Translations under genes and position numbers: made by a program
NCBI GenBank assembly: GCA_032718475.1
Contig: JAUCBJ010007155.1
Coordinates: forward strand, 1-64,000
Source: Nemertoderma westbladi
Taxonomy: Eukaryota > Animalia > Xenacoelomorpha
Direction of reading: 5' to 3'
DNA: 64,000 nucleotides
Notes under the pieces: generated by a model
What the model was told of the DNA's origin: nothing
The model's database searches: none
The model's input: the letters and a program-made list of their open reading frames with translations, nothing else
In this document: piece after piece, positions 1 through 64,000 of the stretch
How positions within the stretch are numbered: the first letter of the stretch is position 1
Layout of the letters: each line of letters opens with the position of its first letter

Positions 1-3000
1 AACAACCACGCTATCTCATAACCTACCTCAGATTAAACAACCACGCTATCTCATAACCTACCTCACATTAAACAACCACGCTATCTCATAACCTACCTCA
101 CATTAAACAACCACGCTATCTCATAACCTACCTCAGATTAAACAACCAAACCACGCCTATCTCATAACCTACCTCTTTAACAACCACGCTATCTCATAAC
201 CTACCTCAGATTAAACAACCACGCTATCTCATAACCTACCTCAGATTAAACAACCACGCTATCCCATAACCTACCTCAGATTAAACAACCACGCTATCTC
301 ATAACCTACCTCAGATTAAACAACCACGCTATCCCATAACCTACCTCAGATTAAACAACCACGCTATCTCATAACCTACCTCAGATTAAACAACCACGCT
401 ATCCCATAACCTACCTCAGATTAAACAACCACGCTATCTCATAACCTACCTCAGATTAAACAACCACGCTATCCCATAACCTACCTCAGATTAAACAACC
501 ACGCTAACCCATAACCTACCTCAGATTAAACAACCACGCTATCTCATAACCTACCTCAGATTAAACAACCAAACCACGCTATCTCATAACCTACCTCTTT
601 AACAACCACGCTATCTCATAACCTACCTCAGATTAAACAACCACGCTATCTCATAACCTACCTCAGATTAAACAACCACGCTATCCCATAACCTACCTCA
701 GATTAAACAACCACGCTATCTCATAACCTACCTCAGATTAAACAACCACGCTATCTCATAACCTACCTCAGATTAAACAACCACGCTATCTCATAACCTA
801 CCTCAGATTAAACAACCAAACCACGCTATCTCATAACCTACCTCTTTAACAACCACGCTATCTCATAACCTACCTCAGATTAAACAACCACGCTATCTCA
901 TAACCTACCTCAGATTAAACAACCACGCTATCTCATAACCTACCTCAGATTAAACAACCAAACCACGCTATCTCATAACCTACCTCTTTAACAACCACGC
1001 TATCTCATAACCTACCTCAGATTAAACAACCACGCTATCTCATAACCTACCTCAGATTAAACAACCACGCTATCCCATAACCTACCTCAGATTAAACAAC
1101 CACGCTATCTCATAACCTACCTCAGATTAAACAACCACGCTATCTCATAACCTACCTCAGATTAAACAACCACGCTATCTCATAACCTACCTCAGATTAA
1201 ACAACCAAACCACGCTATCTCATAACCTACCTCTTTAACAACCACGCTATCTCATAACCTACCTCAGATTAAACAACCAAACCACGCTATCTCATAACCT
1301 ACCTCAGATTAAACAACCACGCTATCTCATAACCTACCTCAGATTAAACAACCACGCTATCTCATAACCTACCTCAGATTAAACAACCAAACCACGCTAT
1401 CTCATAACCTACCTCTTTAACAACCACGCTATCTCATAACCTACCTCAGATTAAACAACCACGCTATCTCATAACCTACCTCAGATTAAACAACCAAACC
1501 ACGCTATCTCATAACCTACCTCTTTAACAACCACGCTATCTCATAACCTACCTCAGATTAAACAACCACGCTATCTCATAACCTACCTCAGATTAAACAA
1601 CCACGCTATCCCATAACCTACCTCAGATTAAACAACCACGCTATCTCATAACCTACCTCAGATTAAACAACCACGCTATCTCATAACCTACCTCAGATTA
1701 AACAACCACGCTATCCCATAACCTACCTCAGATTAAACAACCACGCTATCCCATAACCTACCTCAGATTAAACAACCACGCTATCTCATAACCTACCTCA
1801 GATTAAACAACCACGCTATCTCATAACCTACCTCAGATTAAACAACCACGCTATCTCATAACCTACCTCAGATTAAACAACCACGCTATCTCATAACCTA
1901 CCTCAGATTAAACAACCACGCTATCTCATAACCTACCTCAGATTAAACAACCACGCTATCTCATAACCTACCTCAGATTAAACAACCACGCTATCTCATA
2001 ACCTACCTCAGATTAAACAACCACGCTATCTCATAACCTACCTCAGATTAAACAACCACGCTATCTCATAACCTACCTCAGATTAAACAACCACGCTATC
2101 TCATAACCTACCTCAGATTAAACAACCACGCTATCCCATAACCTACCTCAGATTAAACAACCACGCTATCCCATAACCTACCTCAGATTAAACAACCACG
2201 CTATCTCATAACCTACCTCAGATTAAACAACCACGCTATCCCATAACCTACCTCAGATTAAACAACCACGCTATCTCATAACCTACCTCTTTAACAACCA
2301 CGCTATCTCATAACCTACCTCAGATTAAACAACCACGCTATCTCATAACCTACCTCAGATTAAACAACCACGCTATCTCATAACCTACCTCAGATTAAAC
2401 AACCACGCTATCTCATAACCTACCTCAGATTAAACAACCACGCTATCTCATAACCTACCTCAGATTAAACAACCACGCTATCTCATAACCTACCTCAGAT
2501 TAAACAACCACGCTATCCCATAACCTACCTCAGATTAAACAACCACGCTATCCCATAACCTACCTCAGATTAAACAACCACGCTATCTCATAACCTACCT
2601 CAGATTAAACAACCACGCTATCCCATAACCTACCTCAGATTAAACAACCACGCTATCTCATAACCTACCTCTTAAACAACCACGCTATCTCATAACCTAC
2701 CTCAGATTAAACAACCACGCTATCTCATAACCTACCTCAGATTAAACAACCACGCTATCTCATAACCTACCTCAGATTAAACAACCACGCTATCCCATAA
2801 CCTACCTCAGATTAAACAACCACGCTATCTCATAACCTACCTCAGATTAAATAACCACGCTAACCCATAACCTACCTCAGATTAAACAACCACGCTATCT
2901 CATAACCTACCTCAGATTAAACAACCACGCTATCCCATAACCTACCTCAGATTAAACAACCACGCTATCTCATAACCTACCTCTTAAACAACCACGCTAT

Positions 3001-4065
3001 CTCATAACCTACCTCAGATTAAACAACCACGCTATCTCATAACCTACCTCAGATTAAACAACCACGCTATCTCATAACCTACCTCAGATTAAACAACCAC
3101 GCTATCTCATAACCTACCTCAGATTAAACAACCACGCTATCTCATAACCTACCTCAGATTAAACAACCACGCTATCTCATAACCTACCTCAGATTAAACA
3201 ACCACGCTATCTCATAACCTACCTCAGATTAAACAACCAAACCACGCTATCTCATAACCTACCTCTTTAACAACCACGCTATCCCATAACCTACCTCTTT
3301 AACAACCACGCTATCTCATAACCTACCTCAGATTAAACAACCACGCTATCTCATAACCTACCTCAGATTAAACAACCACGCTATCTCATAACCTACCTCA
3401 GATTAAACAACCACGCTATCTCATAACCTACCTCAGATTAAACAACCACGCTATCTCATAACCTACCTCCGATTAAACAACCACGCTATCTCATAACCTA
3501 CCTCAGATTAAACAACCACGCTATCTCATAACCTACCTCAGATTAAACAACCACGCTATCTCATAACCTACCTCACATTAAACAACCACGCTATCTCATA
3601 ACCTACCTCAGATTAAACAACCACGCTATCTCATAACCTACCTCACATTAAACAACCACGCTATCTCATAACCTACCTCAGATTAAACAACCACGCTATC
3701 CCATAACCTACCTCAGATTAAACAACCACGCTAACCCATAACCTACCACAGATTAAACAACCACGCTATCTCATAACCTACCTCAGATTAAACAACCACG
3801 CTATCCCATAACCTACCTCAGATTAAACAACCACGCTAACCCATAACCTACCTCAGATTAAACAACCACGCTATCTCATAACCTACCTCAGATTAAACAA
3901 CCACGCTATCTCATAACCTACCTCTTAAACAACCACGCTATCTCATAACCTACCTTTAAACAACCACGCTATCTCATAACCTACCTCAGATTAAACAACC
4001 ACGCTATCTCATAACCTACCTCAGATTAAACAACCACGCTATCTCATAACCTACCTCAGATTAAA
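1..4065. repeat. 35-bp tandem array (about 116 copies) derived from the XPNPEP1 exon 2 / intron 2 donor junction, distal block; runs off the left edge
   Basis: Unit AACAACCACGCTATCTCATAACCTACCTCAGATTA. On the minus strand it reads ATGAGATAGCGTGGTTGTTTAATCTGAG|GTAGGTT, identical to the exon end and donor at 7029-6995. Minor variants: CCCATA for CTCATA, CTCTTTAAC deletion, CCAAACC insertion. Confidence 0.97.
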
Positions 4066-6708
4066 TGTGAGTGATTAAATTCATCTATAAATTCCAGGGT
4101 TATGATCGCAACATTTGATGGGAATCCCAAGACAACAGTTATATGTTGCTACAGTCCAACCAATGCATCAGAGCCAGAAGCAGTCAAGTTTTATGAAGAA
4201 CTGACTGGACTTATTAAGGACATCCCGAAACACAATGTTAAAGTCATTGCTGATGACCTGAATGCGCAAATGGGCCCAGAAGACATCAAGGGTTACACCT
4301 ATAACACCAGTTCTAACAGAAATGGGTACTTACTTTTAGACCTAATGGAAGAATGTGAATTGATACCAACAAACAACACATTCGAAAAGAGTAAGGGGAA
4401 GCTATGGACCTTTCAATACCCTAATGGAACCAAAGCACAACTGGATTACATCCTTATAAACAAAAAGTGGAGAAATAGCATGATCAACTGCGAGGCATAC
4501 AGCTCGTTCAACCTAATTGGTTCGGACCACAGAATTGTGACTGCAGAGATCAGACTCAGTTTGAGAGCCAGCAAACCCAGGACAAGCAAGCAAATCAACT
4601 ATGACTGGGAGAAACTCAGAACTGACAATGCTGTAAAGGATGCTTATACAGTAGAAGTTCAAAACCGCTTTGAAGCACTTCAGTCAATGGATGAAGACCA
4701 ATCCACCGATTCAATATACCAGAATATAATAACAGCCCACAAGGAATCAGCTAAGAGGCATATCCCCCAGAAACCTAAACGAAAACAGTATGTGCCATGG
4801 CAAAACTCTGAGGTTACTTGTAAGAGAGAAGATCTTAAGATAGCCTACAAAGTTAAAACCGAACAACCAACAACCGAAAACATTAACAAGGTTGAGAAAG
4901 CTAAGGACGATCTTAAATTGGCCTACAACATCAGCCAGGAAAAGTACATACAGGATAAAACTGAAGCAATTACAACTGCTCACATACAGCAACAATCAAG
5001 ACTTACCTGGCAAACTGTAAATGAGGTATCTGGTCGGAAAAGTTGTGCAAAGGGGCGCCTCAAAGCCGATAGTCCTGAAGAACGTGTTGGGAAGTGGAAA
5101 AATCACTTCAGCAACTTGCTTGGGCAGCCACCAAACATCGAGGTCAGCCCTACAAGGAAAATATATGACAAGACACTACCTATAGAAACAGGGGACTTCA
5201 CACCTGCCGAACTCCAAAGAAGCATTAAAAGCATGTCCAATAATAAAGCGAGTGGATTAGATGAAATCCCAGCGGAGGTATGGAAAACCGGAGTGCTAAA
5301 TCGACCATTATTGAATGTTTGCAACCGGATGTTAAAAGGGGAAAAGCCACCACCAATTTGGACTAAAGGTCAACTAAAGCCTCTCCCCAAGAAAGGAGAC
5401 CTCGGCATACCAACAAACTATCGTGGGATCTGTCTGCTTGTGGTAGCTGCCAAAATATACAATAAAATGATTCTATATAGGATTAGGCCTCACATAGAGA
5501 AACTACTGCGTAAGAGCCAAAACGGATTTCGACCAAGTAGATCAACAATAGCTCAGATACTTGCACTACGGAGACTGATTGAAGGAATTAAGTCAAAGAA
5601 TCTCCCCGCAGTCATGACTTTTGTGGACTTCAAGAAGGCATTCGACTCCATCCATAGAGGTAAAATGCTTGAAATCCTAAGAGCTTATGGAATACCAGAA
5701 GTAATTGTTGCTGGCATTGGATTGTTATATTGTGACACAGAAGCGCAGGTACTCTCACCAGATGGTGAAACTGAGTTTTTCTCAATCCTGGCTGGCGTAC
5801 TGCAAGGTGACACATTAGCACCATTACTATTTGTAATTGTGCTGGATTACGCAATGAGGACGGCCATGCCACAAAGGGTGAAGATCTGGGATTCACACTT
5901 CAAGAACGCAGAAGTAGTAGATATCCGGCAACTACAGTCACAGACACCGACTTTGCGGATGACATCGCCCTGCTCTCTAATACGCTAGCAGATGCACAGC
6001 TTCTACTAAATAAAGTGGAGAGGGCTGCTAAGGAGGTTGGATTGCATATAAATGCTACCAAGACCGAATTCATGACCTTTAATGTTGATGGAAACTTGAC
6101 AACCATTGATAATAATCAACTAAGGAAGGTCGATGACTTCCAGTACCTTGGATCATGGATAGAGAGTAGCAAAAAGGACATAGAAGTTAGGAAAGCAAAG
6201 GCTTGGGTAGCTCTATCAAAAATGGATACCATCTGGAAATCAGATCTCTCCAGGCACCTGAAGACTAAGTTCTTTCGAGCCACAGTGGAAACTGGAAAGT
6301 GTATTTTTATACGGGGGTGAGACCTGGACACTGACTAAATCACTTGAACAACGAATTGATGGTTGCTACACAAGACTACTAAGGGCAGCCCTAAACATCA
6401 GCTGGAGACAACACATGACAAACGCCGAGCTTTATGGTACAATACCACCTGTATCAACCACCCTCCGTGAACGCAGATTAAGATTCAGTGGGCACTGCTG
6501 GCGAAGTAAAGACGAGGTCATACCAGATCTACTTCTCTGGCAACCAACTCATGGAAAGCGTAGTCGTGGACGACCTGCCATAACATATATAGATCAACTT
6601 GAAAGGGATACTGAACTTGGGAGAAACGAAATTGCGACAACTATGAAGAATCGGGAAGCCTGGAAGGATCTCATTTCCACTGTCCGAGTTCGCTCGACCT
6701 AGTAGTAG
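4066..6708 (+). mobile_element. 5'-truncated RTE-clade non-LTR retrotransposon (APE endonuclease + reverse transcriptase) with two frameshifts
   Basis: ORF 4102-5988 has APE motifs (CYSPT, LDYIL, SDHR) and RT motifs (QNGFR, DFKKAFDS, GVLQGDTLAPLLF). FADD lies in another frame after a frameshift near 5870, followed by FQYLGS. After a second frameshift near 6297 come LYGGETW and RRLRFSGHCWR. The stop runs directly into a (TAG)3 tail, as is typical of RTE elements. Confidence 0.93.
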
Positions 6709-7029
6709 TATCTCATAACCTACCTCAGATTAAACAACCACGCTATCTCATAACCTACCTCAGATTAAACAACCACGCTATCTCATAACCTACCTCAGAT
6801 TAAACAACCACGCTATCTCATAACCTACCTCCGATTAAACAACCACGCTATCTCATAACCTACCTCAGATTAAATAACCACGCTATCTCATAACCTACCT
6901 CAGATTAAACAACCACGCTCTCATAACCTACCTCAGATTAAACAACCACGCTATCTCATAACCTACCTCAGATTAAACAACCACGCTATCTCATAACCTA
7001 CCTCAGATTAAACAACCACGCTATCTCAT
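6709..7029. repeat. 35-bp tandem array, exon-proximal block (about 9 copies); the rightmost unit is the genuine exon end plus donor
   Basis: Same unit as 1-4065; merges seamlessly into the coding exon at 7002-7029 (codons for DEIAWLFNLR). Confidence 0.96.
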
Positions 7030-7393
7030 CCAAAGCCGTTATAAGAACGGCGCCGACTTTTTTACTCTCCATTTTGCTCCGCAACTCAGCGACTTTGGCG
7101 CGCCACGACCTGCCGGCGAACTCGATTCCGAGAACGGATACGGGTTGGTCCGGGGGGTCGGGTTTCCCCTCCCACACCGAATCTACTAGATTCGCCCACA
7201 CCGGCACCAGATGCAGACCCCCGGCGGAGAGCTCCTTGCTGAGTTTCTTCCACTCGGAGTGGGAGACCAGATGGGGGTCTGCCCCTACCGAGTCGCCCAA
7301 TCGCAACTCCGATATCAGCCATTCAGCCTCGCTCGGGGTCGACTCCTGACGTTGTTTCATCAGCACCCAATTATCGTCCAACTCGCTTTCCGC
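7002..7393 (-). CDS. XPNPEP1: Xaa-Pro aminopeptidase 1 (aminopeptidase P), coding exon 2
   Basis: Acceptor ttttttctgtggcag|GCG at 7393. Translates AESELDDNWVLMKQ...VGADPHL...NLVDSVW...ITALDEIAWLFNLR, matching the aminopeptidase P N-terminal domains. Donor AG|gtaggt at 7002/7001 (392 nt, phase 2). Later exons are outside the window. Confidence 0.92.
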
Positions 7394-8291: not shown

Positions 8292-8531
8292 CTGCAACCA
8301 ATAGCGTCCGTCGGTCCACAGAGCAGCGCTACTATTGGTAACCACGGCGACACCAGCGGAGCCAGTAAATCCCGTTATAAATTGTCTTCGTTTGTCGCAG
8401 TGCCGAATGTATTCGCTCTGGTGGGAATCTCCCGATGGTACGATGTAAGCCGATAATATTTCCTTAGAGTGAGTTTTCCCGACCATAACCTTACGCAATG
8501 CATTAAGCCGTGCGGCCATAATTGGTAACAT
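8292..8531 (-). CDS. XPNPEP1: Xaa-Pro aminopeptidase 1, coding exon 1
   Basis: [15 protein letters not shown]...[18 protein letters not shown]...[12 protein letters not shown] is the aminopeptidase P N-terminal signature. Donor CAG|gtaggg at 8292/8291, phase 0, in frame with exon 2. Start is ATG 8531 or 8519. Confidence 0.92.
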
Positions 8532-13400: not shown

Positions 13401-15677
13401 CTACCCCAGGGTCTGACCATTTGAGGATCGCGACGTATTTTTCACAACGGATTTCAAATAGGATGCGAAACTAATGGAATCTGCGCCCTTCATATCGAAT
13501 CTGGAGAGTTTGACTCGCGGCAGATGAGTAACGACTGAGGCAGCGGAAACGGATTCGGTCGCTAGAACGCAGTAGACCGACTCTAATACCGGATCCTTAA
13601 CGACGACGTACCCAGCGCCATCAGCGGCGGCGAGCAACACCCTGCGGGCGGTCCCGCTACCGATAGCGTCGACGGCGACCGCGAGGTTCGATAACCGGAT
13701 ACCGTAGGCCCGGCTCGGGTCCACACTCACGTAGCGCCTACTAGCGGGGTAGTAGACCCCCACCAGCGGTGGGGGGCGCACCGCCGGTGATCCATCGGGG
13801 ACCACCGCCACTGGGTCGCAGTTGAACGGAGGGAAGTCGACCCGAGGTAGCGAAACGATCGGTGATAGCGCGGAAGTGATACCGGTGGGAAGGCCAACAC
13901 CGCGGTGGATCTGTACGCTCCTAGGTTTACCGCTAGGTGGCGTGAGATTCACTGTTACCACCCCCAGGGAGGGCTGTCTGTTCTTGGTTTCTATTGGCTG
14001 AGTGGTTGCCGGTCTAATCTGGACGAGCAGGTTCGGTTTCTCCTGATCTATCAAAGGGAGGGGCAATTTGGAAATCGGAGACTGTTCTATTTTGCCGAAT
14101 TGGACGGGCACCGCTAACTTGGTCAAAGCACTGGCAATCGCTGCTGATCTTTGACTGTTGTTGATACGTTGCCTTGCAACCGCTGCTGATCCTTGACTGT
14201 TGTTGATACTTTGCCTAGCAACCGCTGCTGATCCTTGACTGTTGTTGATACGTTGCCTAGCAACCGCTGCTGATCCTTGACTGTTGTTCATACGTTGCCT
14301 AGCAACCGCTGCTGATCCTTGACTGTTGTTGATACGTTGCCTAGCAACCGCTGCTGATGCTTGACTGTTGTTGATACGTTGCCTAGCAACCGCTGCTGAT
14401 CCTTGACTGTTGTTGATACTTTGCCTAGCAACCGCTGCTGATCCTTGACTGTTGTTGATACGTTGCCTAGCAACCGCTGCTGAACCTTGGCTGTTGTTGA
14501 TACGTTGCTTAGCAACCGCTTCTGATCCTTGACTGTTGTTGATACGTTGCCTAGCAACCGCTGCTGATCCTTGACTGTTGTTGATACTTTGCCTAGCAAC
14601 CGCTGCTGATCCTTGACTGTTGTTGATACGTTGCCTAGCAATCGCTTCTGATCCTCGACTATTGTTGATACGTTGCCTAGCAACCGCTGCTGATCCTTGA
14701 CTGTTGTTGATACTTTGCCTAGCAACCGCTGCTGATCCTTGACTGTTGTTGATACGTTGCCTAGCAATCGCTTCTGATCCTCGACTATTGTTGATACGTT
14801 GCCTAGCAACAGCAGATAATCCTTGTCTGTTGTTGATGCGTTGTTTAGCAACCTTGTCTGTCCCATCGTGTATATTTGTCGGTTGCTTAGTAATCTCGGG
14901 TGGAGTCTCCGATAGTAGTTGTTTGAAACGGAGGTATCGGGAGGAGCCGCGACGGATGGACAACTCCCCGATAGTCTGGCCCCGTCTGTCAGACACCCAG
15001 TAGAAGCGTCTGCAGCGTCGCTCAATGAATTGTGTATCACCTAGAGTCTGTAGCACAAGGGTGGATTCTAAAGGGATTCTAGCAGGTAATTGGATGACGG
15101 TTGGGGATTGTAAAGGAACTCTAGCAGCTGATTGGCTGACAGCAGGGGTTTGTACATGTGTATTCCTAGAAACAGTAGCCAATGGAAAGTTAACGGATGA
15201 TTGGAGGGATAAGGCACCCTTTCGTTTATATAAATGTTCATTGACAAAAGTTGGTTTTGGTAGCAATGGTAGCATATTGCAGGTTCGATTCACTGTAGGT
15301 GGGTAGTACGGGAGACCGATAATAGGGGAGATAACATTAGGGGCACTTCGTGGGGCATAAGGACTTAGAATCTGTGGACGGCTAAATGTAACATTCGTAG
15401 ATGACGGCGGTATATTTATGGGTGCGAATCTAATGCCGTTCGACTGCATGAACGCCAAGGTTAAAGTACTTGTAGGAGGGAATCTACTACCAGGTAATTG
15501 GCTAGAAGCTAAAGTATTGGTAGTGTGGAGGTTGCCATTGGCTAGGGTGTGCTGGTGCAACCCAATACAGCTAAGGATATCTTTAGTACGAACCAAACGG
15601 GTTGGTGAACATTTCCCGAACGATGGTATATTGATATACTCAGGAGCTTTACCCCCAATTGGGACTTGGAATGACAC
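13401..15677 (-). CDS. THAP-domain protein, coding exon 5 (terminal; low-complexity, with a 14-aa tandem repeat)
   Basis: Acceptor ttttatttgttccag|GTG at 15677, in frame (phase 0) with exon 4; open for 758 codons to TAG at 13401-13403. Confidence 0.8.
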   Translation of the reverse strand: MSFQVPIGGKAPEYINIPSFGKCSPTRLVRTKDILSCIGLHQHTLANGNLHTTNTLASSQLPGSRFPPTSTLTLAFMQSNGIRFAPINIPPSSTNVTFSRPQILSPYAPRSAPNVISPIIGLPYYPPTVNRTCNMLPLLPKPTFVNEHLYKRKGALSLQSSVNFPLATVSRNTHVQTPAVSQSAARVPLQSPTVIQLPARIPLESTLVLQTLGDTQFIERRCRRFYWVSDRRGQTIGELSIRRGSSRYLRFKQLLSETPPEITKQPTNIHDGTDKVAKQRINNRQGLSAVARQRINNSRGSEAIARQRINNSQGSAAVARQSINNSQGSAAVARQRINNSRGSEAIARQRINNSQGSAAVARQSINNSQGSAAVARQRINNSQGSEAVAKQRINNSQGSAAVARQRINNSQGSAAVARQSINNSQGSAAVARQRINNSQASAAVARQRINNSQGSAAVARQRMNNSQGSAAVARQRINNSQGSAAVARQSINNSQGSAAVARQRINNSQRSAAIASALTKLAVPVQFGKIEQSPISKLPLPLIDQEKPNLLVQIRPATTQPIETKNRQPSLGVVTVNLTPPSGKPRSVQIHRGVGLPTGITSALSPIVSLPRVDFPPFNCDPVAVVPDGSPAVRPPPLVGVYYPASRRYVSVDPSRAYGIRLSNLAVAVDAIGSGTARRVLLAAADGAGYVVVKDPVLESVYCVLATESVSAASVVTHLPRVKLSRFDMKGADSISFASYLKSVVKNTSRSSNGQTLG
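14140..14855 (-). repeat. 42-bp coding minisatellite (about 16-17 copies) encoding AVARQRINNSQGSA
   Basis: Plus-strand unit GTTGATACGTTGCCTAGCAACCGCTGCTGATCCTTGACTGTT; reading frame preserved throughout, with diverged copies at both edges. Confidence 0.93.
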
Positions 15678-15789
15678 CTGGAACAAATAAAAGAGTCCAT
15701 CTCAGGATATTCGATCCAAAGTTTGGTATAATAATGAATACAGAAGCTATTCCTTAAAGCTGCTATACGTAGTACAGCTAAGCGCGGCA

Positions 15790-50944: not shown

Positions 50945-53900
50945 TCCCTGCTGTTGTATTTGTATCCATTGTCCCTGCTGTTGTATTTGTTTCCATTGTC
51001 CCTGCTGTTGTATTTGTATCCGTTGTGGGGCGAGCGACGAAAGTAAGCGAGCTTAGCATACAGGTACCACTAACTCAATCGGTGTGTCTGTTGTTCTGTT
51101 GATCTGTTGTGTCAAATTTTAGACGTTAATAACTCAGCCAAAGGTTAAATTTTCTTAATTATTTATTTAAATTTCTTAAGTACCGATTTTGGGATAGAAT
51201 TGCTCAATTTTAATCTGTATCTAATAACTGAGCCTCGTCCTGCGCGATTGCCCCACGAACGTGTCCATGCTGTTGTGTTTGTATCCATTGTCCATGCTGT
51301 TGTATTTGTATCCATTGCCCATGATGTTGTGTTTGTATCCATTGTCCATGCTGTTGTGTTTGTATCCATTGTCCAAGTCCATGCTGTTGTATTTGTATCC
51401 ATTGTCCATGCTGTTGTATTTGTGTCCATGTCCTGTCCAGTCCATGCTGTTGTATTTGTATCGATTGTCCATGCTGTTGTATTTGTATCCATTGTCCATG
51501 CCCATGTTGTTGTATTTGTGTCCAATATCCATGCTCTTGTGTTTGTATCCATTGTCCATGCTGTTGTATTTGTATCCATTGTCCATGTCCATGCTGTTGT
51601 ATTTGTATATATTGTCCATGCTGTTGTATTTGTATCCATTGTCCATGCTGTTGTATTTGTATCCATTGTCCATGCTGTTGTATTTTTATCCATTGTCCAT
51701 GCTGTTGTGTTTGTATCCATTGCCCATGGAATTGTATTTATATCCATTGCCCATGCTGTTGTATTTGTATCCATTGTCCATGCAATTGTATTTGTATCCA
51801 TTGTCCCTGCTGTAGTATTTGTATCCGTTATTACAGGAACGTCGGCTGTTGTATTTTTATCCATTGTCCATGCAATTGTATTTGTATCCATTGTCCCTGC
51901 TGTAGTATTTGTATCCGTTATTACAGGAACGTCGGCTGTTGTATTTGTATCCATTGTCCATGTCGATACTGTTGTATTTGTATCCATTGTCCATGCAATT
52001 GTATTTGTATCCCTTATTACATGAACGTTCATGCTGTTGCATTTTTATCCATTGTCCATGCTGTTGTATTTGTATCCATTGTCCCTGCTGTTGTATTTGT
52101 ATCCGTCATTGCAGGAACGTCGGCTTTTGTATTTGTATACATTGTCCATGCTGTTGTATTTGTATCCGTTGTCCTGTCCATGCTGTTGTATTTGTATCCA
52201 TTGTCCATGCAATTGTATTTGTATCCATTGTCCATGTCCATGCTGTTGTATTTGTATCCATTGTCCCTGCTATTGTAATTGTATCCCTTATTACAGCGTC
52301 CATGCGGTTGTATTTGTATCCATTGTCTATGCAATTGTATTTGTATCCATTGTCCCTGCTATTGTATTGGTATCCCTTATTACATGAACGTTCATGCTGT
52401 TGCATTTTTATCCATTGTCCATGCTGTTGTATTTGTATCCATTGTCCCTGCTGTTGTATTTGTATCCGTCATTGCAGGAACGTCGGCTTTTGTATTTGTA
52501 TACATTGTCCATGTCGATACTGTTGTATTTGTATCCATTGTCCATGCAATTGTATTTGTATCCATTGTCCCTGCTATTGTATTGGTATCCCTTATTACAT
52601 GAACGTTCATGCTGTTGCATTTTTATCCATTGTCCATGCTGTTGTATTTGTATCCATTGTCCCTGCTGTTGTATTTGTATCCCTTATTACATGAACGTCG
52701 GCTGTTGTATTTGTATCCATTGTCCATGTCGATACTGTTGTATTTGTATCCATTGTCCATGCAATTGTATTTGTATCCATTGTCCCTGCTATTGTATTGG
52801 TATCCCTTATTACATGAACGTTCATGCTGTTGCATTTTTATCCATTGTCCATGCTGTTGTATTTGTATCCATTGTCCCTGCTGTTGTATTTGTATCCGTC
52901 ATTGCAGGAACGTCGGCTTTTGTATTTGTATACATTGTCCATGCTGTTGTATTTGTATCCATTGTCCTGTCCATGCTGTTGTATTTGTATCCATTGTCCA
53001 TGCAATTGTATTTGTATCCATTGTCCATGTCCATGCTGTTGTATTTGTATCCATTGTCCCTGCTATTGTAATTGTATCCCTTATTACAGCGTCCATGCGG
53101 TTGTATTTGTATCCATTGTCTATGCAATTGTATTTGTATCCATTGTCCCTGCTGTTGTATTAGTATCCGTTATTACAGGAACGTCGGCTGTTGTATTTTT
53201 ATCCATTGTCCATGCTATGCTGTTGTATTTGTATCCATTGTCTATGCTGTTGTATTTGTATCCATTGTCTATGGTGTTGTATTTGTATCCATTGTCCATG
53301 CTGTTAATTTGTATCCATTGTCCAGTCCATGTCCAGTCCATGCTGTTGTATTTGTATCCCTTATTACAGGAACGTCCATGCTGTTGTATTTGTATCCATT
53401 GTCCATGTCGATACTGTTGTATTTTTATCCATTGTCTATGCAATTGTATTTGTATCCATTGTCCCTGCTGTTGTATTTGTATCCCTTATTACAGGAACGT
53501 CCATGATGTTGTATTTGTATCCATTGTCTATGCAATTGTATTTGTATCCATTGTCCCTGCTGTTGTATTTGTATCCGTTATTACAGGAACGTCCATGCTG
53601 TTGTATTTGTATCCATTGTCTATGCAATTGTATTTGTATCCATTGACCTGTTCATGCTGTTGTATTTGTATCCATTGACCTGTTCATGCTGTTGTATTTG
53701 TATTCATTGACCTGTCCATGCTGTTGTATTTGTATCCATTGTCCATGCTGTTGTATTTGTATCCATTGACCTGTTCATGCTGTTGTATTTGTATTCATTG
53801 ACCTGTCCATGCTGTTGTATTTGTATCCATTGTCCATGATGTTGTATCTGTATCCATTGTCCATGCTGTTGTATTTGTATCCGTTATTACAGGAACGTCC

Positions 53901-56900
53901 ATGCTGTTGTATTTGTATCCATTGTCCATGTCCAGTCCATGCTGTTGTATTTGTATCCATTGTCCATGCTGTTGTATTTGTATCCATTGACCTGTTCATG
54001 CTGTTGTATTTGTATTCATTGACCTGTCCATGCTGTTGTATTTGTATCCATTGTCCATGCTGTTGTATTTGTATCCATTGACCTGTTCATGCTGTTGTAT
54101 TTGTATTCATTGACCTGTCCATGCTGTTGTATTTGTATCCATTGTCCATGATGTTGTATCTGTATCCATTGTCCCTGCTGTTGTATTAGTATCCGTTATT
54201 ACAGGAACGTCGGCTGTTGTATTTTTATCCATTGTCCATGCTATGCTGTTGTATTTGTATCCATTGTCTATGCTGTTGTATTTGTATCCATTGTCTATGG
54301 TGTTGTATTTGTATCCATTGTCCATGCTGTTAATTTGTATCCATTGTCCAGTCCATGTCCAGTCCATGCTGTTGTATTTGTATCCCTTATTACAGGAACG
54401 TCCATGCTGTTGTATTTGTATCCATTGTCCATGTCGATACTGTTGTATTTTTATCCATTGTCTATGCAATTGTATTTGTATCCATTGTCCCTGCTGTTGT
54501 ATTTGTATCCCTTATTACAGGAACGTCCATGATGTTGTATTTGTATCCATTGTCTATGCAATTGTATTTGTATCCATTGTCCCTGCTGTTGTATTTGTAT
54601 CCGTTATTACAGGAACGTCCATGCTGTTGTATTTGTATCCATTGTCTATGCAATTGTATTTGTATCCATTGACCTGTTCATGCTGTTGTATTTGTATCCA
54701 TTGACCTGTTCATGCTGTTGTATTTGTATTCATTGACCTGTCCATGCTGTTGTATTTGTATCCATTGTCCATGATGTTGTATCTGTATCCATTGTCCATG
54801 CTGTTGTATTTGTATCCGTTATTACAGGAACGTCCATGCTGTTGTATTTGTATCCATTGTCCATGCTGTTGTATTTGTATCCATTGTCCATGTCCAGTCC
54901 ATGCTGTTGTATTTGTATCCGTGATTACAGGAACGTCCATGCTGTTGTATTTGTATCCATTGTCCATGTCCAGTCCATGCTGTTGTATTTGTATCCGTTA
55001 TTACAGGAACGTCCATGCTGTTGTATTTGTATCCATTGTCCATGCTGTTGTATTTGTATCCGTTATTACAGGAACGTCAATGCTGTTGTATTTGTATCCG
55101 TTATTACAGGAACGTCCATGCTGTTGTATTTGTATCCATTGTCCATGCTGTTGTATTTGTATCCGTTATTACAGGAACGTCAATGCTGTTGTATTTGTAT
55201 CCGTGATTACAGGAACCTCCATGCTGTTGTATTTGTATCCATTGTCCATGCTGTTGTATTTGTATCCATTGTCCATGTCCAGTCCATGCTGTTGTATTTG
55301 TATCCGTTATTACAGGAACGTCAATGCTGTTGTATTTGTATCCATTGTCCATGCTGTTGTATCTGTATCCATTGTCCATGCTGTTGTATTTGTATCCGTT
55401 ATTACAGGAACGTCCATGCTGTTGTATTTGTATCCATTGTCCATGTCCAGTCCATGCTGTTGTATTTGTATCCGTTATTACAGGAACGTCAATGCTGTTG
55501 TATTTGTATCCATTGTCCATGCTGTTGTATTTGTATCCATTGTCCATGCTGTTGTATTTGTATCCGTTATTACAGGAACGTCAATGCTGTTGTATTTGTA
55601 TCCATTGTCCATGCTGTTGTATTTGTATCCGTTATTACAGGAACGTCAATGCTGTTGTATTTGTATCCATTGTCCATGCTGTTGTATTTGTATCCGTTAT
55701 TACAGGAACGTCAATGCTGTTGTATTTGTATCCATTGTCCATGCTGTTGTATTTGTATCCGTTATTACAGGAACGTCAATGCTGTTGTATTTGTATCCAT
55801 TGTCCATGCTGTTGTATTTGTATCCGTTATTACAGGAACGTCAATGCTGTTGTATTTGTATCCATTGTCCATGCTGTTGTATTTGTATCCGTTATTGCAG
55901 GAACGTCCATGCTGTTGTATTTGTATCCATTGTCCATGCTGTTGTATTTGTATCCGTGATTACAGGAACCTCCATGCTGTTGTATTTGTATCCATTGTCC
56001 ATGTCCAGTCCATGCTGTTGTATTTGTATCCGTTATTGCAGGAACGTCCATGCTGTTGTATTTGTATCCATTGTCCATGATGTTGTATCTGTATCCATTG
56101 TCCATGATGTTGTATTTGTATCCGTTATTACAGGAACGTCCATGCTGTTGTATTTGTATCCGTTATTACAGGAACGTCCATGCTGTTGTATTTGTATCCA
56201 TTGTCCATGATGTTGTATTTGTATCCGTTATTACAGGAACGTCAATGCTGTTGTATTTGTATCCATTGTCCATGCTGTTGTATTTGTATCCGTTATTACA
56301 GGAACGTCAATGCTGTTGTATTTGTATCCATCATCCATGCTGTTGTATTTGTATCCATTGTCCATGCTGTTGTATTTGTATCCATTGTCCATGCTGTTGT
56401 ATTTGTATCCGTTATTACAGGAACGTCAATGCTGTTGTATTTGTATCCATCATCCATGCTGTTGTATTTGTATCCATTGTCCATGCTGTTGTATTTGTAT
56501 CCATTGTCCATGCTGTTGTATTTGTATCCATTGTCCATGTCCAGTCCATGCTGTTGTATTTGTATCCGTTATTGCAGGAACGTCCATGCTGTTGTATTTG
56601 TATCCATTGTCCATGATGTTGTATCTGTATCCATTGTCCATGATGTTGTATTTGTATCCGTTATTACAGGAACGTCCATGCTGTTGTATTTGTATCCGTT
56701 ATTACAGGAACGTCCATGCTGTTGTATTTGTATCCATTGTCCATGATGTTGTATTTGTATCCGTTATTACAGGAACGTCAATGCTGTTGTATTTGTATCC
56801 ATTGTCCATGCTGTTGTATTTGTATCCGTTATTACAGGAACGTCAATGCTGTTGTATTTGTATCCATCATCCATGCTGTTGTATTTGTATCCATTGTCCA

Positions 56901-59900
56901 TGCTGTTGTATTTGTATCCATTGTCCATGCTGTTGTATTTGTATCCGTTATTACAGGAACGTCCATGCTGTTGTATTTGTATCCATTGTCCATGCTGTTG
57001 TATTTGTATCCATTGTCCATGCTGTTGTATTTGTATCCGTTATTACAGGAACGTCAATGCTGTTGTATTTGTATCCGTTATTACAGGAACCTCCATGCTG
57101 TTGTATTTGTATCCATTGTCCATGCTGTTGTATTTGTATCCATTGTCCATGCTGTTGTATTTGTATCCGTTATTACAGGAACGTCCATGCTGTTGTATTT
57201 GTATCCATTGTCCATGCTGTTGTATTTGTATCCATTGTCCATGCTGTTGTATTTGTATCCGTTATTACAGGAACGTCAATGCTGTTGTATTTGTATCCGT
57301 TATTACAGGAACCTCCATGCTGTTGTATTTGTATCCATTGTCCATGCTGTTGTATTTGTATCCATTGTCCATGCTGTTGTATTTGTATCCGTTATTACAG
57401 GAACGTCAATGCTGTTGTATTTGTATCCATCATCCATGCTGTTGTATTTGTATCCATTGTCCATGCTGTTGTATTTGTATCCATTGTCCATGCCGTTGTA
57501 TTTGTATCCGTTATTACAGGAACGTCCATGCTGTTGTATTTGTATCCATTGTCCATGCTGTTGTATTTGTATCCATTGTCCATGCTGTTGTATTTGTATC
57601 CGTTATTACAGGAACGTCAATGCTGTTGTATTTGTATCCGTTATTACAGGAACCTCCATGCTGTTGTATTTGTATCCATTGTCCATGCTGTTGTATTTGT
57701 ATCCGTTATTACAGGAACGTCCATGCTGTTGTATTTGTATCCATTGTCCATGTCCAGTCCATGCTGTTGTATTTGTATCCATTGTCCATGCTGTTGTATT
57801 TGTATCCATTGTCCATGCTGTTGTATTTGTATCCGTTATTACAGGAACGTCCATGCTGTTGTATTTGTATCCATTGTCCATGATGTTGTATTTGTATCCA
57901 TTGTCCATGATGTTGTATTTGTATCCATTGTCCATGCTGTTGTATTTGTATCCGTTATTACAGGAACGTCCATGCTGTTGTATTTGTATCCATTGTCCAT
58001 GCTGTTGTATTTGTATCCGTTATTGCAGGAACGTCCATGCTGTTGTATTTGTATCCATTGTCCATGCTGTTGTATTTGTATCCGTTATTGCAGGAACGTC
58101 CATGCTGTTGTATTTGTATCCATTGTCCATGCTGTTGTATTTGTATCCGTGATTACAGGAACCTCCATGCTGTTGTATTTGTATCCATTGTCCATGTCCA
58201 GTCCATGCTGTTGTATTTGTATCCGTTATTGCAGGAACGTCCATGCTGTTGTATTTGTATCCATTGTCCATGCTGTTGTATTTGTATCCGTTATTACAGG
58301 AACGTCAATGCTGTTGTATTTGTATCCATCATCCATGCTGTTGTATTTGTATCCATTGTCCATGCTGTTGTATTTGTATCCATTGTCCATGCTGTTGTAT
58401 TTGTATCCGTTATTACAGGAACGTCCATGCTGTTGTATTTGTATCCATTGTCCATGCTGTTGTATTTGTATCCATTGTCCATGCTGTTGTATTTGTATCC
58501 GTTATTACAGGAACGTCAATGCTGTTGTATTTGTATCCGTTATTACAGGAACCTCCATGCTGTTGTATTTGTATCCATTGTCCATGCTGTTGTATTTGTA
58601 TCCGTTATTACAGGAACGTCCATGCTGTTGTATTTGTATCCATTGTCCATGTCCAGTCCATGCTGTTGTATTTGTATCCATTGTCCATGCTGTTGTATTT
58701 GTATCCATTGTCCATGCTGTTGTATTTGTATCCGTTATTACAGGAACGTCCATGCTGTTGTATTTGTATCCATTGTCCATGATGTTGTATTTGTATCCAT
58801 TGTCCATGATGTTGTATTTGTATCCATTGTCCATGCTGTTGTATTTGTATCCGTTATTACAGGAACGTCCATGCTGTTGTATTTGTATCCATTGTCCATG
58901 TCCAGTCCATGCTGTTGTATTTGTATCCATTGTCCATGCTGTTGTATTTGTATCCATTGTCCATGCTGTTGTATTTGTATCCGTTATTACAGGAACGTCC
59001 ATGCTGTTGTATTTGTATCCATTGTCCATGCTGTTGTATTTGTATCCATTGTCCATGCTGTTGTATTTGTATCCGTTATTACAGGAACGTCCATGCTGTT
59101 GTATTTGTATCCATTGTCCATGATGTTGTATTTGTATCCATTGTCCATGATGTTGTATTTGTATCCATTGTCCATGCTGTTGTATTTGTATCCGTTATTA
59201 CAGGAACGTCCATGCTGTTGTATTTGTATCCATTGTCCATGCTGTTGTATTTGTATCCGTTATTGCAGGAACGTCCATGCTGTTGTATTTGTATCCATTG
59301 TCCATGCTGTTGTATTTGTATCCGTTATTGCAGGAACGTCCATGCTGTTGTATTTGTATCCATTGTCCATGCTGTTGTATTTGTATCCGTGATTACAGGA
59401 ACCTCCATGCTGTTGTATTTGTATCCATTGTCCATGTCCAGTCCATGCTGTTGTATTTGTATCCGTTATTGCAGGAACGTCCATGCTGTTGTATTTGTAT
59501 CCATTGTCCATGCTGTTGTATTTGTATCCGTTATTACAGGAACGTCAATGCTGTTGTATTTGTATCCATCATCCATGCTGTTGTATTTGTATCCATTGTC
59601 CATGCTGTTGTATTTGTATCCATTGTCCATGCTGTTGTATTTGTATCCGTTATTACAGGAACGTCCATGCTGTTGTATTTGTATCCATTGTCCATGCTGT
59701 TGTATTTGTATCCATTGTCCATGCTGTTGTATTTGTATCCGTTATTACAGGAACGTCAATGCTGTTGTATTTGTATCCGTTATTACAGGAACCTCCATGC
59801 TGTTGTATTTGTATCCATTGTCCATGCTGTTGTATTTGTATCCGTTATTACAGGAACGTCCATGCTGTTGTATTTGTATCCATTGTCCATGTCCAGTCCA

Positions 59901-62900
59901 TGCTGTTGTATTTGTATCCATTGTCCATGCTGTTGTATTTGTATCCATTGTCCATGCTGTTGTATTTGTATCCGTTATTACAGGAACGTCCATGCTGTTG
60001 TATTTGTATCCATTGTCCATGATGTTGTATTTGTATCCATTGTCCATGATGTTGTATTTGTATCCATTGTCCATGCTGTTGTATTTGTATCCGTTATTAC
60101 AGGAACGTCCATGCTGTTGTATTTGTATCCATTGTCCATGTCCAGTCCATGCTGTTGTATTTGTATCCATTGTCCATGCTGTTGTATTTGTATCCATTGT
60201 CCATGCTGTTGTATTTGTATCCGTTATTACAGGAACGTCCATGCTGTTGTATTTGTATCCATTGTCCATGCTGTTGTATTTGTATCCATTGTCCATGCTG
60301 TTGTATTTGTATCCATTGTCCATGCTGTTGTATTTGTATCCGTTATTACAGGAACGTCCATGCTGTTGTATTTGTATCCATTGTCCATGCTGTTGTATTT
60401 GTATCCATTGTCCATGCTGTTGTATTTGTATCCATTGTCCATGCTGTTGTATTTGTATCCATTGTCCATGCTGTTGTATTTGTATCCGTTATTACAGGAA
60501 CGTCCATGCTGTTGTATTTGTATCCATTGTCCATGCTGTTGTATTTGTATCCATTGTCCATGCTGTTGTATTTGTATCCATTGTCCATGCTGTTGTATTT
60601 GTATCCGTTATTACAGGAACGTCCATGCTGTTGTATTTGTATCCATTGTCCATGCTGTTGTATTTGTATCCATTGTCCATGCTGTTGTATTTGTATCCAT
60701 TGTCCATGTCCAGTCCATGCTGTTGTATTTGTATCCATTGTCCATGCTGTTGTATTTGTATCCATTGTCCATGCTGTTGTATTTGTATCCGTTATTACAG
60801 GAACGTCCATGCTGTTGTATTTGTATCCATTGTCCATGCTGTTGTATTTGTATCCATTGTCCATGCTGTTGTATTTGTATCCATTGTCCATGCTGTTGTA
60901 TTTGTATCCGTTATTACAGGAACGTCCATGCTGTTGTATTTGTATCCATTGTCCATGCTGTTGTATTTGTATCCATTGTCCATGCTGTTGTATTTGTATC
61001 CATTGTCCATGCTGTTGTATTTGTATCCATTGTCCATGCTGTTGTATTTGTATCCATTGTCCATGCTGTTGTATTTGTATCCGTGATTACAGGAACCTCC
61101 ATGCTGTTGTATTTGTATCCATTGTCCATGATGTTGTATTTGTATCCATTGTCCATGATGTTGTATTTGTATCCATTGTCCATGCTGTTGTATTTGTATC
61201 CGTTATTACAGGAACGTCAATGCTGTTGTATTTGTATCCATTGTCCATGCTGTTGTATTTGTATCCGTTATTACAGGAACGTCAATGCTGTTGTATTTGT
61301 ATCCATTGTCCATGCTGTTGTATTTGTATCCGTTATTACAGGAACGTCAATGCTGTTGTATTTGTATCCATTGTCCATGCTGTTGTATTTGTATCCGTTA
61401 TTACAGGAACGTCAATGCTGTTGTATTTGTATCCATTGTCCATGATGTTGTATTTGTATCCATTGTCCATGCTGTTGTATTTGTATCCGTTATTACAGGA
61501 ACGTCAATGCTGTTGTATTTGTATCCATTGTCCATGATGTTGTATTTGTATCCATTGTCCATGTCCAGTCCATGCTGTTGTATTTGTATCCGTTATTACA
61601 GGAACGTCAATTCTGTTGTATTTGTATCCATTGTCCATGCTGTTGTATTTGTATCCATTGTCCATGTCCAGTCCATGCTGTTGTATTTGTATCCGTTATT
61701 ACAGGAACGTCAATTCTGTTGTATTTGTATCCGTGATTACAGGAACCTCCATGCTGTTGTATTTGTATCCATTGTCCATGCTGTTGTATTTGTATCCATT
61801 GTCCATGTCCAGTCCATGCTGTTGTATTTGTATCCGTTATTACAGGAACGTCCATGCTGTTGTATCTGTATCCATTGTCCATGCTGTTGTATTTGTATCC
61901 GTTATTACAGGAACGTCCATGCTGTTGTATTTGTATCCATTGTCCATGTCCAGTCCATGCTGTTGTATTTGTATCCGTTATTACAGGAACGTCAATGCTG
62001 TTGTATTTGTATCCATTGTCCATGATGTTGTATTTGTATCCATTGTCCATGCTGTTGTATTTGTATCCGTTATTACAGGAACGTCCGATGCTGTTGTATT
62101 TGTATCCATTGTCCATGCTGTTGTATTTGTATCCATTGTCCATGCTGTTGTATTTGTATCCGTTATTACAGGAACGTCCATGCTGTTGTATTTGTATCCA
62201 TTGTCCATGTCCAGTCCATGCTGTTGTATTTGTATCCGTTATTACAGGAACGTCAATGCTGTTGTATTTGTATCCATCATCCATGCTGTTGTATTTGTAT
62301 CCATTGTCCATGCTGTTGTATCTGTATCCATTGTCCATGCTGTTGTATTTGTATCCGTTATTACAGGAACGTCCATGCTGTTGTATCTGTATCCATTGTC
62401 CATGCTGTTGTATTTGTATCCGTTATTACAGGAACGTCCATGCTGTTGTATTTGTATCCATTGTCCATGTCCAGTCCATGCTGTTGTATTTGTATCCGTT
62501 ATTACAGGAACGTCCATGCTGTTGTATTTGTATCCATTGTCCATGTCCAGTCCATGCTGTTGTATTTGTATCCGTTATTACAGGAACGTCAATGCTGTTG
62601 TATTTGTATCCATTGTCCATGCTGTTGTATTTGTATCCATTGACCTGTTCATGCTGTTGTATTTGTATTCATTGACCTGTCCATGATGTTGTATTTGTAT
62701 CCATTGTCCATGCTGTTGTATTTGTATCCGTTATTACAGGAACGTCCATGCTGTTGTATCTGTATCCATTGTCCATGCTGTTGTATTTGTATCCGTTATT
62801 ACAGGAACGTCAATGCTGTTGTATTTGTATCCATTGTCCATGATGTTGTATTTGTATCCGTTATTACAGGAACGTCAATGCTGTTGTATTTGTATCCGTT

Positions 62901-64000
62901 ATTACAGGAACGTCAATGCTGTTGTATTTGTATCCATTGTCCATGATGTTGTATTTGTATCCATTGTCCATGCTGTTGTATTTGTATCCGTTATTACAGG
63001 AACGTCCATGCTGTTGTATCTGTATCCATTGTCCATGCTGTTGTATTTGTATCCGTTATTACAGGAACGTCAATGCTGTTGTATTTGTATCCATTGTCCA
63101 TGATGTTGTATTTGTATCCATTGTCCATGCTGTTGTATTTGTATCCGTTATTACAGGAACGTCCGATGCTGTTGTATTTGTATCCATTGTCCATGCTGTT
63201 GTATTTGTATCCATTGTCCATGCTGTTGTATTTGTATCCGTTATTACAGGAACGTCCATGCTGTTGTATTTGTATCCATTGTCCATGTCCAGTCCATGCT
63301 GTTGTATTTGTATCCGTTATTACAGGAACGTCAATGCTGTTGTATTTGTATCCATCATCCATGCTGTTGTATTTGTATCCATTGTCCATGCTGTTGTATC
63401 TGTATCCATTGTCCATGCTGTTGTATTTGTATCCGTTATTACAGGAACGTCCATGCTGTTGTATCTGTATCCATTGTCCATGCTGTTGTATTTGTATCCG
63501 TTATTACAGGAACGTCCATGCTGTTGTATTTGTATCCATTGTCCATGTCCAGTCCATGCTGTTGTATTTGTATCCGTTATTACAGGAACGTCCATGCTGT
63601 TGTATTTGTATCCATTGTCCATGTCCAGTCCATGCTGTTGTATTTGTATCCGTTATTACAGGAACGTCAATGCTGTTGTATTTGTATCCATTGTCCATGC
63701 TGTTGTATTTGTATCCATTGACCTGTTCATGCTGTTGTATTTGTATTCATTGACCTGTCCATGATGTTGTATTTGTATCCATTGTCCATGCTGTTGTATT
63801 TGTATCCGTTATTACAGGAACGTCCATGCTGTTGTATCTGTATCCATTGTCCATGCTGTTGTATTTGTATCCGTTATTACAGGAACGTCAATGCTGTTGT
63901 ATTTGTATCCATTGTCCATGATGTTGTATTTGTATCCGTTATTACAGGAACGTCAATGCTGTTGTATTTGTATCCGTTATTACAGGAACGTCAATGCTGT
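50945..64000 (+). repeat. Composite 27/38-bp satellite (over 12.7 kb, runs off the right edge) made of a 3' splice site plus the start of Rab33 exon 3
   Basis: Units: CCATTGTCCATGCTGTTGTATTTGTAT (27 bp), CCGTTATTACAG|GAACGTCCATGCTGTTGTATTTGTAT (38 bp) and CCATTGTCCATGTCCAGTCCATGCTGTTGTATTTGTAT (38 bp). The sequence after AG encodes (R)NVHAVVFV in the phase required by Rab33 exon 2. Confidence 0.95.
51021..51261. mobile_element. Short element with inverted ends interrupting the start of the Rab33 acceptor array
   Basis: CGTTGTGGGGC at the left end and GCCCCACGAACG at the right end; satellite units on both sides. Confidence 0.5.

What the first reader, a model, noticed from the sequence alone, without database searches (positions are those of the whole stretch)
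1..64000. Splice-junction-seeded satellites: each spliced gene here has a giant intron built from amplified splice-site motifs
Seen: three unrelated arrays (35 bp, 31 bp, 27/38 bp) inflate one intron in each of the three spliced genes. Two are copies of the host gene's own junction, one a donor (XPNPEP1) and one an acceptor (Rab33). The third repeats GTAAGT on the sense strand. Established: ordinary satellites have no systematic relation to splice sites. Inference: two independent junction-derived arrays within 64 kb suggest a genome-wide process that nucleates tandem amplification at exon boundaries, for example transcription- or splicing-coupled damage with slippage or rolling-circle repair. 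An alternative is selective tolerance or use of such arrays for stepwise splicing, splicing-factor binding or transcript timing. I know of no named system with this architecture, but cannot search the literature.
Basis: partly seen in the sequence, partly recalled or inferred. Interest (0 to 1): 0.88.

Follow-up and report, generated by a model that had tools for sequence, protein, structure and literature searches.

The report
Satellite-sized splice-junction "mirage" repeats
Two genes of an invertebrate animal carry hundreds of head-to-tail copies of their own exon edge and splice signal inside an intron, yet the main RNA uses only the true signal, so these are unusually large examples of a known and likely tolerated repeat type ("mirages").

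Summary
Two of the three giant arrays are real copies of their gene's own exon-intron junction. XPNPEP1: 35-bp unit = last 28 nt of exon 2 + first 7 nt of intron, at least 124 monomers, 123 with the donor. Rab33: 38-bp unit = last 14 nt of intron + first 24 nt of exon 3, plus a 27-bp form lacking the acceptor; at least 402 monomers, 122 with an acceptor. Both are high-copy in public DNA of two studies. An RNA-like run joins the first donor and the last acceptor. The third array (THAP gene) carries GTAAGT but is not a junction copy.

The class is named and published: amphioxus 'mirages' and human F7/CBS-type minisatellites, at 2-25 copies. What differs is size (4.4 and 12.8 kb or more), kilobase internal duplications, transposon insertions and acceptor loss far from the exon. 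None of 22 smaller tandem loci touches a junction, which favours tolerance plus growth over nucleation at junctions. A genome-wide process could not be tested: no genome is held.

The parts
8292..8519 (-). XPNPEP1 (Xaa-Pro aminopeptidase 1) coding exon 1
   Evidence: Creatinase_N hit; spliced to exon 2 in run X4, 898 nt skipped, CT..AC ends
7002..7393 (-). XPNPEP1 exon 2; its last 28 nt (7029-7002) are the exon part of the first 35-bp monomer; functional donor at 7002/7001
   Evidence: Creatinase_N_2 hit; best named hits are Xaa-Pro aminopeptidase 1, 54% at best; X4 contig leaves at 7001 into the next exon
6709..7029 (-). Donor-junction array, exon-proximal part (9 monomers of 35 bp)
   Evidence: 65-nt full-period contig at depth 376.6 in X3
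4066..6708 (+). LINE-type retrotransposon (endonuclease + RT, 5' truncated, two frameshifts, TAG-repeat tail) inserted in the donor array, antisense to XPNPEP1
   Evidence: RVT_1 and Exo_endo_phos_2 hits; junctions printed
1..4065 (-). Donor-junction array, distal part (about 115 monomers; runs off the window)
13401..32842 (-). THAP-domain gene, modelled exons 32842-32507, 31851-31654, 31428-31203, 29107-28908, 15677-13401
   Evidence: THAP hit; single open frame of 1078 codons with GT-AG introns; no RNA check
15792..28805 (-). 31-bp satellite (417 monomers tiled) filling 13.0 of the 13.2 kb of THAP intron 4; carries GTAAGT on the sense strand but is not a junction copy
35911..36116 (+). Rab33 coding exon 1
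   Evidence: Ras hit; top five PDB matches are Rab-33B
37752..37853 (+). Rab33 exon 2
   Evidence: Ras hit; its end is the 5' loose end of the X4 contig that runs into exon 3
45657..48104 (+). Intronless MIOS gene nested on the same strand in Rab33 intron 2
   Evidence: MIOS_WD40 and MIOS_a-sol hits; one ORF
50945..64000 (+). Acceptor-junction array: 38-bp monomers (14 nt intron + 24 nt of Rab33 exon 3) mixed with 27-bp monomers lacking the acceptor; runs off the window towards the true exon 3
51027..51261 (.). 235-bp insertion with inverted ends (MITE-like) near the distal edge of the acceptor array
   Evidence: sequence printed

Best explanation
The XPNPEP1 and Rab33 arrays are tandem copies of each gene's own exon-intron junction, and they most likely began as ordinary short duplications that happened to straddle a splice site and were tolerated because the extra copies are spliced out with the intron. 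Shown: unit origin; presence in independent DNA; the dominant mRNA carries one copy of the exon part (first donor, last acceptor). Inferred: the outermost copy wins because only it borders a complete exon (exon definition; 5'-to-3' donor scanning as shown for human F7), and rare use of a decoy is hidden because it gives a premature stop (at once for XPNPEP1; after 62-92 codons for three Rab33 decoys tested). Inferred: growth to satellite size came by unequal exchange or block duplication, as for any satellite, which also built the non-junction 31-bp array. Inferred: the 27-bp monomer arose by deleting the acceptor, and acceptor-free monomers are commonest far from the exon, either through age or through selection against upstream decoys.
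For: Unit anatomy. X4 contigs of 826 nt (depth 1758.6) and 1195 nt (depth 716.2) run from unique exon through one copy of the exon part into the next exon; the exon parts (28 and 24 nt) are shorter than the 31-letter words, so the path is resolved. Read-through stops. Exact internal duplications of 1318 nt at lag 1240, 970 at lag 1078, 613 at lag 1026 (Rab33) and 1745 at lag 1937 (THAP). The window is rich in other tandem duplications: 22 loci, 0 at a junction, two in coding sequence with 42-bp (in-frame) units. Acceptor-bearing monomers 17 of 122 in 51265-55000 against 105 of 280 beyond; match to the exon 18.1-18.4 of 20 distally and 19.0-19.9 proximally. Same behaviour published for mirages and F7.
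Against: Tolerance alone does not explain why 2 of the 3 giant arrays but 0 of 22 small ones are junction-derived (Fisher P about 0.01, worked by hand, post hoc, one chosen window), nor why the third giant array happens to carry GTAAGT (1-2% of 31-mers do). The acceptor gradient counts amplified, non-independent copies. RNA evidence is one run of assembled contigs, which drop rare forms. The ancestral intron sizes are unknown.
Confidence: 0.6

Rival explanations
1. Biased birth: duplications are nucleated preferentially at splice junctions (transcription- or splicing-coupled breaks, R-loops).
For: Two neighbours in 64 kb; P(2 or more of 3) = 0.0003-0.0004 on present-day non-array DNA, 0.004-0.006 for 10 arrays. 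The donor array is G-rich on the sense strand (G 35%, C 5%). Amphioxus has many such loci and their origin is called unclear.
Against: 0 of 22 smaller tandem loci overlap a junction, nearest 197 nt. With 200-nt ancestral introns P is 0.09-0.11; the THAP intron minus its array is about 215 nt. The Rab33 array has no G/C skew. The window was picked for this pattern out of a very large scan.
Confidence: 0.18
2. Biased growth or function: arrays rich in splice signals can grow large because their nascent RNA binds U1 or other splicing factors, which keeps transcription going, forms a splicing-factor depot, or allows stepwise removal.
For: All three arrays over 4 kb carry a splice motif on the sense strand (123 donors; 415 GTAAGT; 122 acceptors), while the four medium arrays have 0-1 GTRAG. 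A donor-rich chicken repeat recruits spliceosomal snRNPs and lacks polyadenylation signals (bioRxiv 10.64898/2026.03.19.712899, passages). No AATAAA or ATTAAA on the sense strand of any giant array.
Against: Donor positions are not better conserved than the rest of the unit: 35-mer, 1 of 7 intron positions varies against 10 of 28 exon positions, with 18 exon positions also invariant; 31-mer, 4 of the 6 GTAAGT positions vary. The Rab33 array has lost its signal in 280 of 402 monomers. Lack of a polyadenylation hexamer is expected for most units this short.
Confidence: 0.16
3. The Rab33 seed is a copy of the spliced exon 2-exon 3 junction (RNA- or cDNA-templated), the end of exon 2 serving as the new acceptor.
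For: The intron part of the 38-mer matches the end of exon 2 at 11 of 12 letters with one 2-nt gap; score 17 against 6-13 for the six other introns; shuffle P 0.025.
Against: One post hoc comparison among seven introns; both sequences must end in YAG; the XPNPEP1 unit has a true intron part unlike the next exon; the genomic acceptor differs from the mRNA junction.
Confidence: 0.05
4. Assembly or amplification artefact.
For: The exact lengths rest on one assembly; short-read contigs cannot span the arrays.
Against: Both units are high-depth tandem contigs in DNA runs of two studies, at most one of which is the source; arrays hold a LINE, a MITE-like insertion, many variants and kilobase duplications.
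Confidence: 0.01

Closest known systems
'Mirage' minisatellites of amphioxus (Adh3, troponin C, globins BflGb6 and BflGb9, PGBD5). Seen: PMC3087553 section 16 and passages; PMC3902484 passages. The original Adh3 paper (PMC117041) is not held.
   Same: Tandem copies of the gene's own exon-intron boundary, on donor or acceptor side; some copies lack the splice signal; normal mRNA is still made; edges more diverged than the centre; several loci in one genome.
   Different: Here at least 124 and at least 402 monomers (4.4 and 12.8 kb) against 2-7 units in the passages read; kilobase internal duplications, transposon insertions, a dominant acceptor-less derivative. The animal is not close to any named hit (XPNPEP1 54% at best, MIOS 31%).
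Human boundary-spanning minisatellites: F7 intron 7 (37 bp x 5-9), 6-16 (25 pseudo-sites), CBS (15-20), LMNB2, PDGF. Seen: PMC1557585 abstract and passages.
   Same: Donor reiterated into the intron; the most upstream donor is used, by 5'-to-3' scanning in F7.
   Different: Five to 25 times fewer copies; donor side only in that paper; in 6-16 and CBS the nearest decoys are also used, which contigs could not show here.
Satellite-filled gigantic introns of Drosophila Y genes. Seen: PMC11207136 abstract; PMC6508621 search listing.
   Same: Introns swollen by tandem repeats that must be transcribed.
   Different: Megabase scale; no junction origin is mentioned in what I saw.
Chicken LL2R repeat. 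Seen: bioRxiv 10.64898/2026.03.19.712899, passages.
   Same: Transcribed tandem array with excess donor sites and few polyadenylation signals; model for the 31-bp and 35-bp arrays binding splicing factors.
   Different: LL2R is its own transcription unit, not an intron of a protein gene; binding is shown there and untested here.

Membership tests
Mirage (exon-intron boundary minisatellite), 35-bp and 27/38-bp arrays | Unit is a copy of the host gene's own exon-intron boundary | tested here: met
   35-mer = 28 exon + 7 intron nt; 38-mer = 14 intron + 24 exon nt
Mirage (exon-intron boundary minisatellite), 35-bp and 27/38-bp arrays | Head-to-tail array contiguous with the functional junction, which is the terminal copy | tested here: met
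   XPNPEP1 seen in the window; Rab33: the exon-3 contig has only array-type predecessors in three DNA runs (1 of 160, 1 of 14, 2 of 19 contigs partly off, none a long unique stretch before the acceptor)
Mirage (exon-intron boundary minisatellite), 35-bp and 27/38-bp arrays | Many but not all copies keep the splice signal | tested here: met
   123 of 124 donors; 122 of 402 acceptors
Mirage (exon-intron boundary minisatellite), 35-bp and 27/38-bp arrays | Normal mRNA is still produced | tested here: met
   Dominant contigs of run X4 use the first donor and the last acceptor; one run, contigs only
Mirage (exon-intron boundary minisatellite), 35-bp and 27/38-bp arrays | Length or sequence polymorphism between individuals | tested here: inconclusive
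   A 3-nt deletion variant is in X1 and X5 (sample S1) but not listed in X3; relative depths of the two arrays differ between X1 and X3 in opposite directions; contig depth is no copy number
Mirage (exon-intron boundary minisatellite), 35-bp and 27/38-bp arrays | Somatic instability (reported for Adh3) | not testable with these tools
   Needs single-molecule data from one animal
Mirage, 31-bp array | Unit is a copy of the host gene's own boundary and adjoins it | tested here: not met
   P 0.13 and 0.61 against shuffles; array begins inside the intron
Recursive (stepwise) splicing | Intronic acceptor that regenerates a donor (AG|GT) and is used in nascent RNA | tested here: inconclusive
   The Rab33 acceptor copies are followed by GA, not GT, so the usual form is absent there; the 35-mer has AG|GT but preceded by exon sequence; no nascent RNA available

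The most novel reading that the evidence does not exclude
In this lineage giant introns are built genome-wide by satellites whose growth depends on carrying splice signals: junction-seeded or donor-bearing arrays recruit the spliceosome on nascent RNA, which lets them expand to tens of kilobases, and the cell picks one true site among hundreds of identical ones.
Probability: 0.15. Interest if true: 0.72.

Novelty: new variant of a known kind. Interest (0 to 1): 0.38.

Why it matters
The kind is known, but the size makes a sharp natural experiment. In Rab33 the functional acceptor is preceded by repeat sequence, so at least 44 upstream copies share an identical 30-nt site and the branch point must lie in the repeat; whatever picks the last copy has to act from downstream of exon position 24 or by destroying mis-spliced RNA. 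It also shows an exon edge turning into a structured satellite that then loses its splice site, and ties the coding sequence of two conserved genes to concerted evolution of a satellite (38 monomers carry a variant that would change an exon codon).

Tried and rejected
No whole genome is held, so the genome-wide test was impossible. Place look-ups in earlier findings were blank, as was one word search. No holder was on record as RNA; X4 was recognised as RNA-like only from its spliced joint and lack of intron cover. X4 shows no cover on further donor copies, but a part without cover is no evidence. The far exit of the XPNPEP1 array was not among the loose ends shown (170 rows cut). Junction origin was tested for 14 repeat units against 14 modelled junctions: only the 35-mer exceeded shuffles; the 27- and 38-mers could not score there because exon 3 is outside the window (two Rab33 junction windows were one base off in that script, corrected). 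Selective conservation of donor motifs was tested and not found. An old diverged junction origin of the 31-mer was tested and rejected. Polyadenylation-signal absence is uninformative. Protein searches did not place the animal below 'invertebrate, no close named relative'. PMC117041 and PMC1783408 are not held. PMC10078293 and PMC2812944 (passages) give context only. No supplements were read; those of PMC3087553 and PMC3902484 hold the mirage alignments and could bear on the size comparison.
Full report
Setting. The window is from an animal; no whole genome is held. Tandem Repeats Finder gives three giant arrays, 1-4065 with 6709-7029 (35 bp), 15792-28805 (31 bp) and 51262-64000 with 50945-51026 (27/38 bp), and many smaller ones. 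I modelled three spliced genes: XPNPEP1 on the minus strand, a THAP-domain gene on the minus strand with one open frame of 1078 codons over five exons, and Rab33 on the plus strand. An intronless MIOS gene lies inside Rab33 intron 2. Best protein identities were 54% (XPNPEP1 exon 2) and 31% (MIOS), so the animal has no close named relative in those searches.

Donor array. The 35-bp unit is the last 28 nt of XPNPEP1 exon 2 plus the first 7 nt of the intron. There are 124 monomers in the window, 123 donor 9-mers, and 69 monomers identical to the exon copy. A LINE lies within the array. Laying four runs on 6960-8620: run X4, listed as 'DNA?', skips intron 1 exactly (898 nt) and has no intron cover, so it behaves as RNA. 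Its 826-nt contig (depth 1758.6) stops at 7001 and continues in sequence that, translated by hand, reads G-S-D-V-Q-C-N-P-V-F, the expected next exon (expectation recalled from the human protein). Since 28 nt is shorter than the 31-letter words, this contig shows that the dominant mRNA uses the first donor. DNA run X3 holds a 65-nt contig covering one full period at depth 376.6 against 4.58-6.22 for neighbouring single-copy contigs; X1, of another study, shows summed depth 6504.8 against 17.3-25. Using a later donor gives a stop two codons on.

Acceptor array. The real Rab33 exon 3 is outside the window. Laying four runs on 63485-63550 gave the same loose end behind 63533 in 4 of 4 runs, reading on by hand as Y-D-V-T-K-K-S-S-Y. 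The X4 contig (1195 nt, depth 716.2) has exon 2 in front of it and one copy of the 24 exon letters, so the mRNA ends up at the last acceptor. In DNA the exon-3 contig (X2: 421 nt, depth 7.65) starts with the unit's acceptor, and no long unique stretch precedes the acceptor in any of three DNA runs; 1 of 160, 1 of 14 and 2 of 19 contigs lay partly off. So the array adjoins exon 3, the unit is 14 intron + 24 exon nt, and the family seems confined to this locus. Of 402 monomers tiled in 51265-64000, 122 have YAG|GAAC; 44 carry the exact 30-nt site. The 27-mer is the 38-mer without the acceptor. Acceptors are in 17 of 122 monomers before 55000 and 105 of 280 after; these copies are not independent. 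X4 also has a 57-nt contig of the 27-mer at depth 27.8 (pre-mRNA or DNA traces). Three decoys tested give stops after 62, 92 and 81 codons.

Third array. The 31-mer fills 13,014 of 13,230 nt of THAP intron 4 and has 415 GTAAGT on the sense strand, 46 on the other. It begins inside the intron and aligns to the gene's donor no better than shuffles (P 0.13; 0.61 with the octamer fixed). GTAAGT occurs in 2.0% of shuffled units and 1.1% of real intronic 31-mers, and is not better conserved than the rest of the unit. It is an ordinary satellite with a suggestive motif.

Chance. With 15 junctions and 33.5 kb of non-array DNA, a 35-bp seed spans a junction with p 0.010-0.012, so 2 of 3 has P 0.0003-0.0004, and 2 of 10 has 0.004-0.006; in 200-nt introns P is 0.09-0.11. 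Of 23 tandem loci listed outside the giant blocks, one is the proximal part of the donor array; 0 of the other 22 overlap one of 14 junctions. Several of these are parts of transposons or weak 12-bp repeats. The contrast (Fisher about 0.01 by hand, post hoc) points to size, not birth, as what goes with junction origin, on very small numbers and in a window chosen for the pattern.

Mechanism. Most likely a short duplication across a splice site, tolerated because the outermost copy is the only one that borders a whole exon and because decoy use yields premature stops, then expanded like any satellite. Block growth is shown by exact internal duplications of 1318, 970 and 613 nt in the Rab33 array and 1745 nt in the THAP array; the shared behaviour of the non-junction array shows that giant growth needs no junction seed. 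Age and reality are shown by the LINE and a MITE-like insertion. Exon definition, scanning and decay of mis-spliced RNA are inferred, not measured. Rivals are biased birth at junctions (0.18), splice-signal-dependent growth or function (0.16), a spliced-RNA origin of the Rab33 seed (0.05; 11 of 12 letters match the end of exon 2 with one gap, P 0.025) and artefact (0.01).

Known systems. PMC3087553 (section 16 and passages) describes tandem duplications of donor and acceptor boundaries in amphioxus, named 'mirages', with 3-6 units in BflGb6, normal splicing, loss of signals in some copies and an unclear origin; PMC3902484 (passages) adds PGBD5 and troponin C with 2-7 units. PMC1557585 (abstract and passages) lists human F7, 6-16, CBS, LMNB2 and PDGF, with up to 25 pseudo-sites, and shows first-donor scanning. 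The two junction arrays meet every defining feature that I could test. Eight literature searches listed no paper on such arrays at hundreds of copies; the library lacks most subscription papers, and the original Adh3 paper was not held. Earlier unchecked notes of this scan list the same class in at least 14 genomes, the largest shown being 53 x 87 bp; they are leads only and were seen after I had found the mirage paper.

Verdict. Real, two of three; a known and common class; here at satellite scale with an acceptor-less derivative. New variant of a known kind, interest 0.38.

Noticed in passing
window 45657-48104 (+): Intronless, strongly diverged MIOS gene nested on the same strand inside Rab33 intron 2, so both transcription units overlap in parallel.
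   Followed up: partly
window 14134-14853 (-): 42-bp array of 17 copies inside the last exon of the THAP gene model, giving a 14-residue repeat; open in two frames (766 and 250 codons).
   Followed up: partly
window 41417-42656, 48551-49281, 38833-39065: Three more arrays (31/38, 33 and 23 bp) in Rab33 intron 2 that match no modelled junction; the 31-mer has a lone copy at 43704 and the 33-mer starts about 450 nt after the MIOS stop.
   Followed up: partly
window 40468-41355: Long foldback: arms of about 370 nt, 93-100% complementary, around a spacer of about 150 nt; probably a foldback transposon.
   Followed up: no
window 44236-45248: Element with inverted clusters of a 15-bp repeat at both ends, typical of a DNA transposon derivative.
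   Followed up: no
window 7860-8130 and 34814-35233: A dispersed repeat in XPNPEP1 intron 1 has very high summed depth in DNA runs (up to 170,225 in X1) and resembles the 68-bp tandem unit at 34.8-35.2 kb.
   Followed up: no
window 63496-63509 versus 37840-37853: The intron part of the Rab33 unit resembles the end of exon 2 (11 of 12 letters, one gap; P 0.025).
   Followed up: partly
window 51149-52044: The 27-mer is nine codons without a stop, so the array has long open frames on both strands (291 and 293 codons).
   Followed up: no
window 11500-11960: GC-rich stretch with open frames of 112-124 codons on both strands, not assigned to a gene or element.
   Followed up: no
window 7509, 10961, 13374, 30092, 37879, 38758, 40076: Frequent pure C or G runs of 15-41 nt, often at the edges of repeats.
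   Followed up: no
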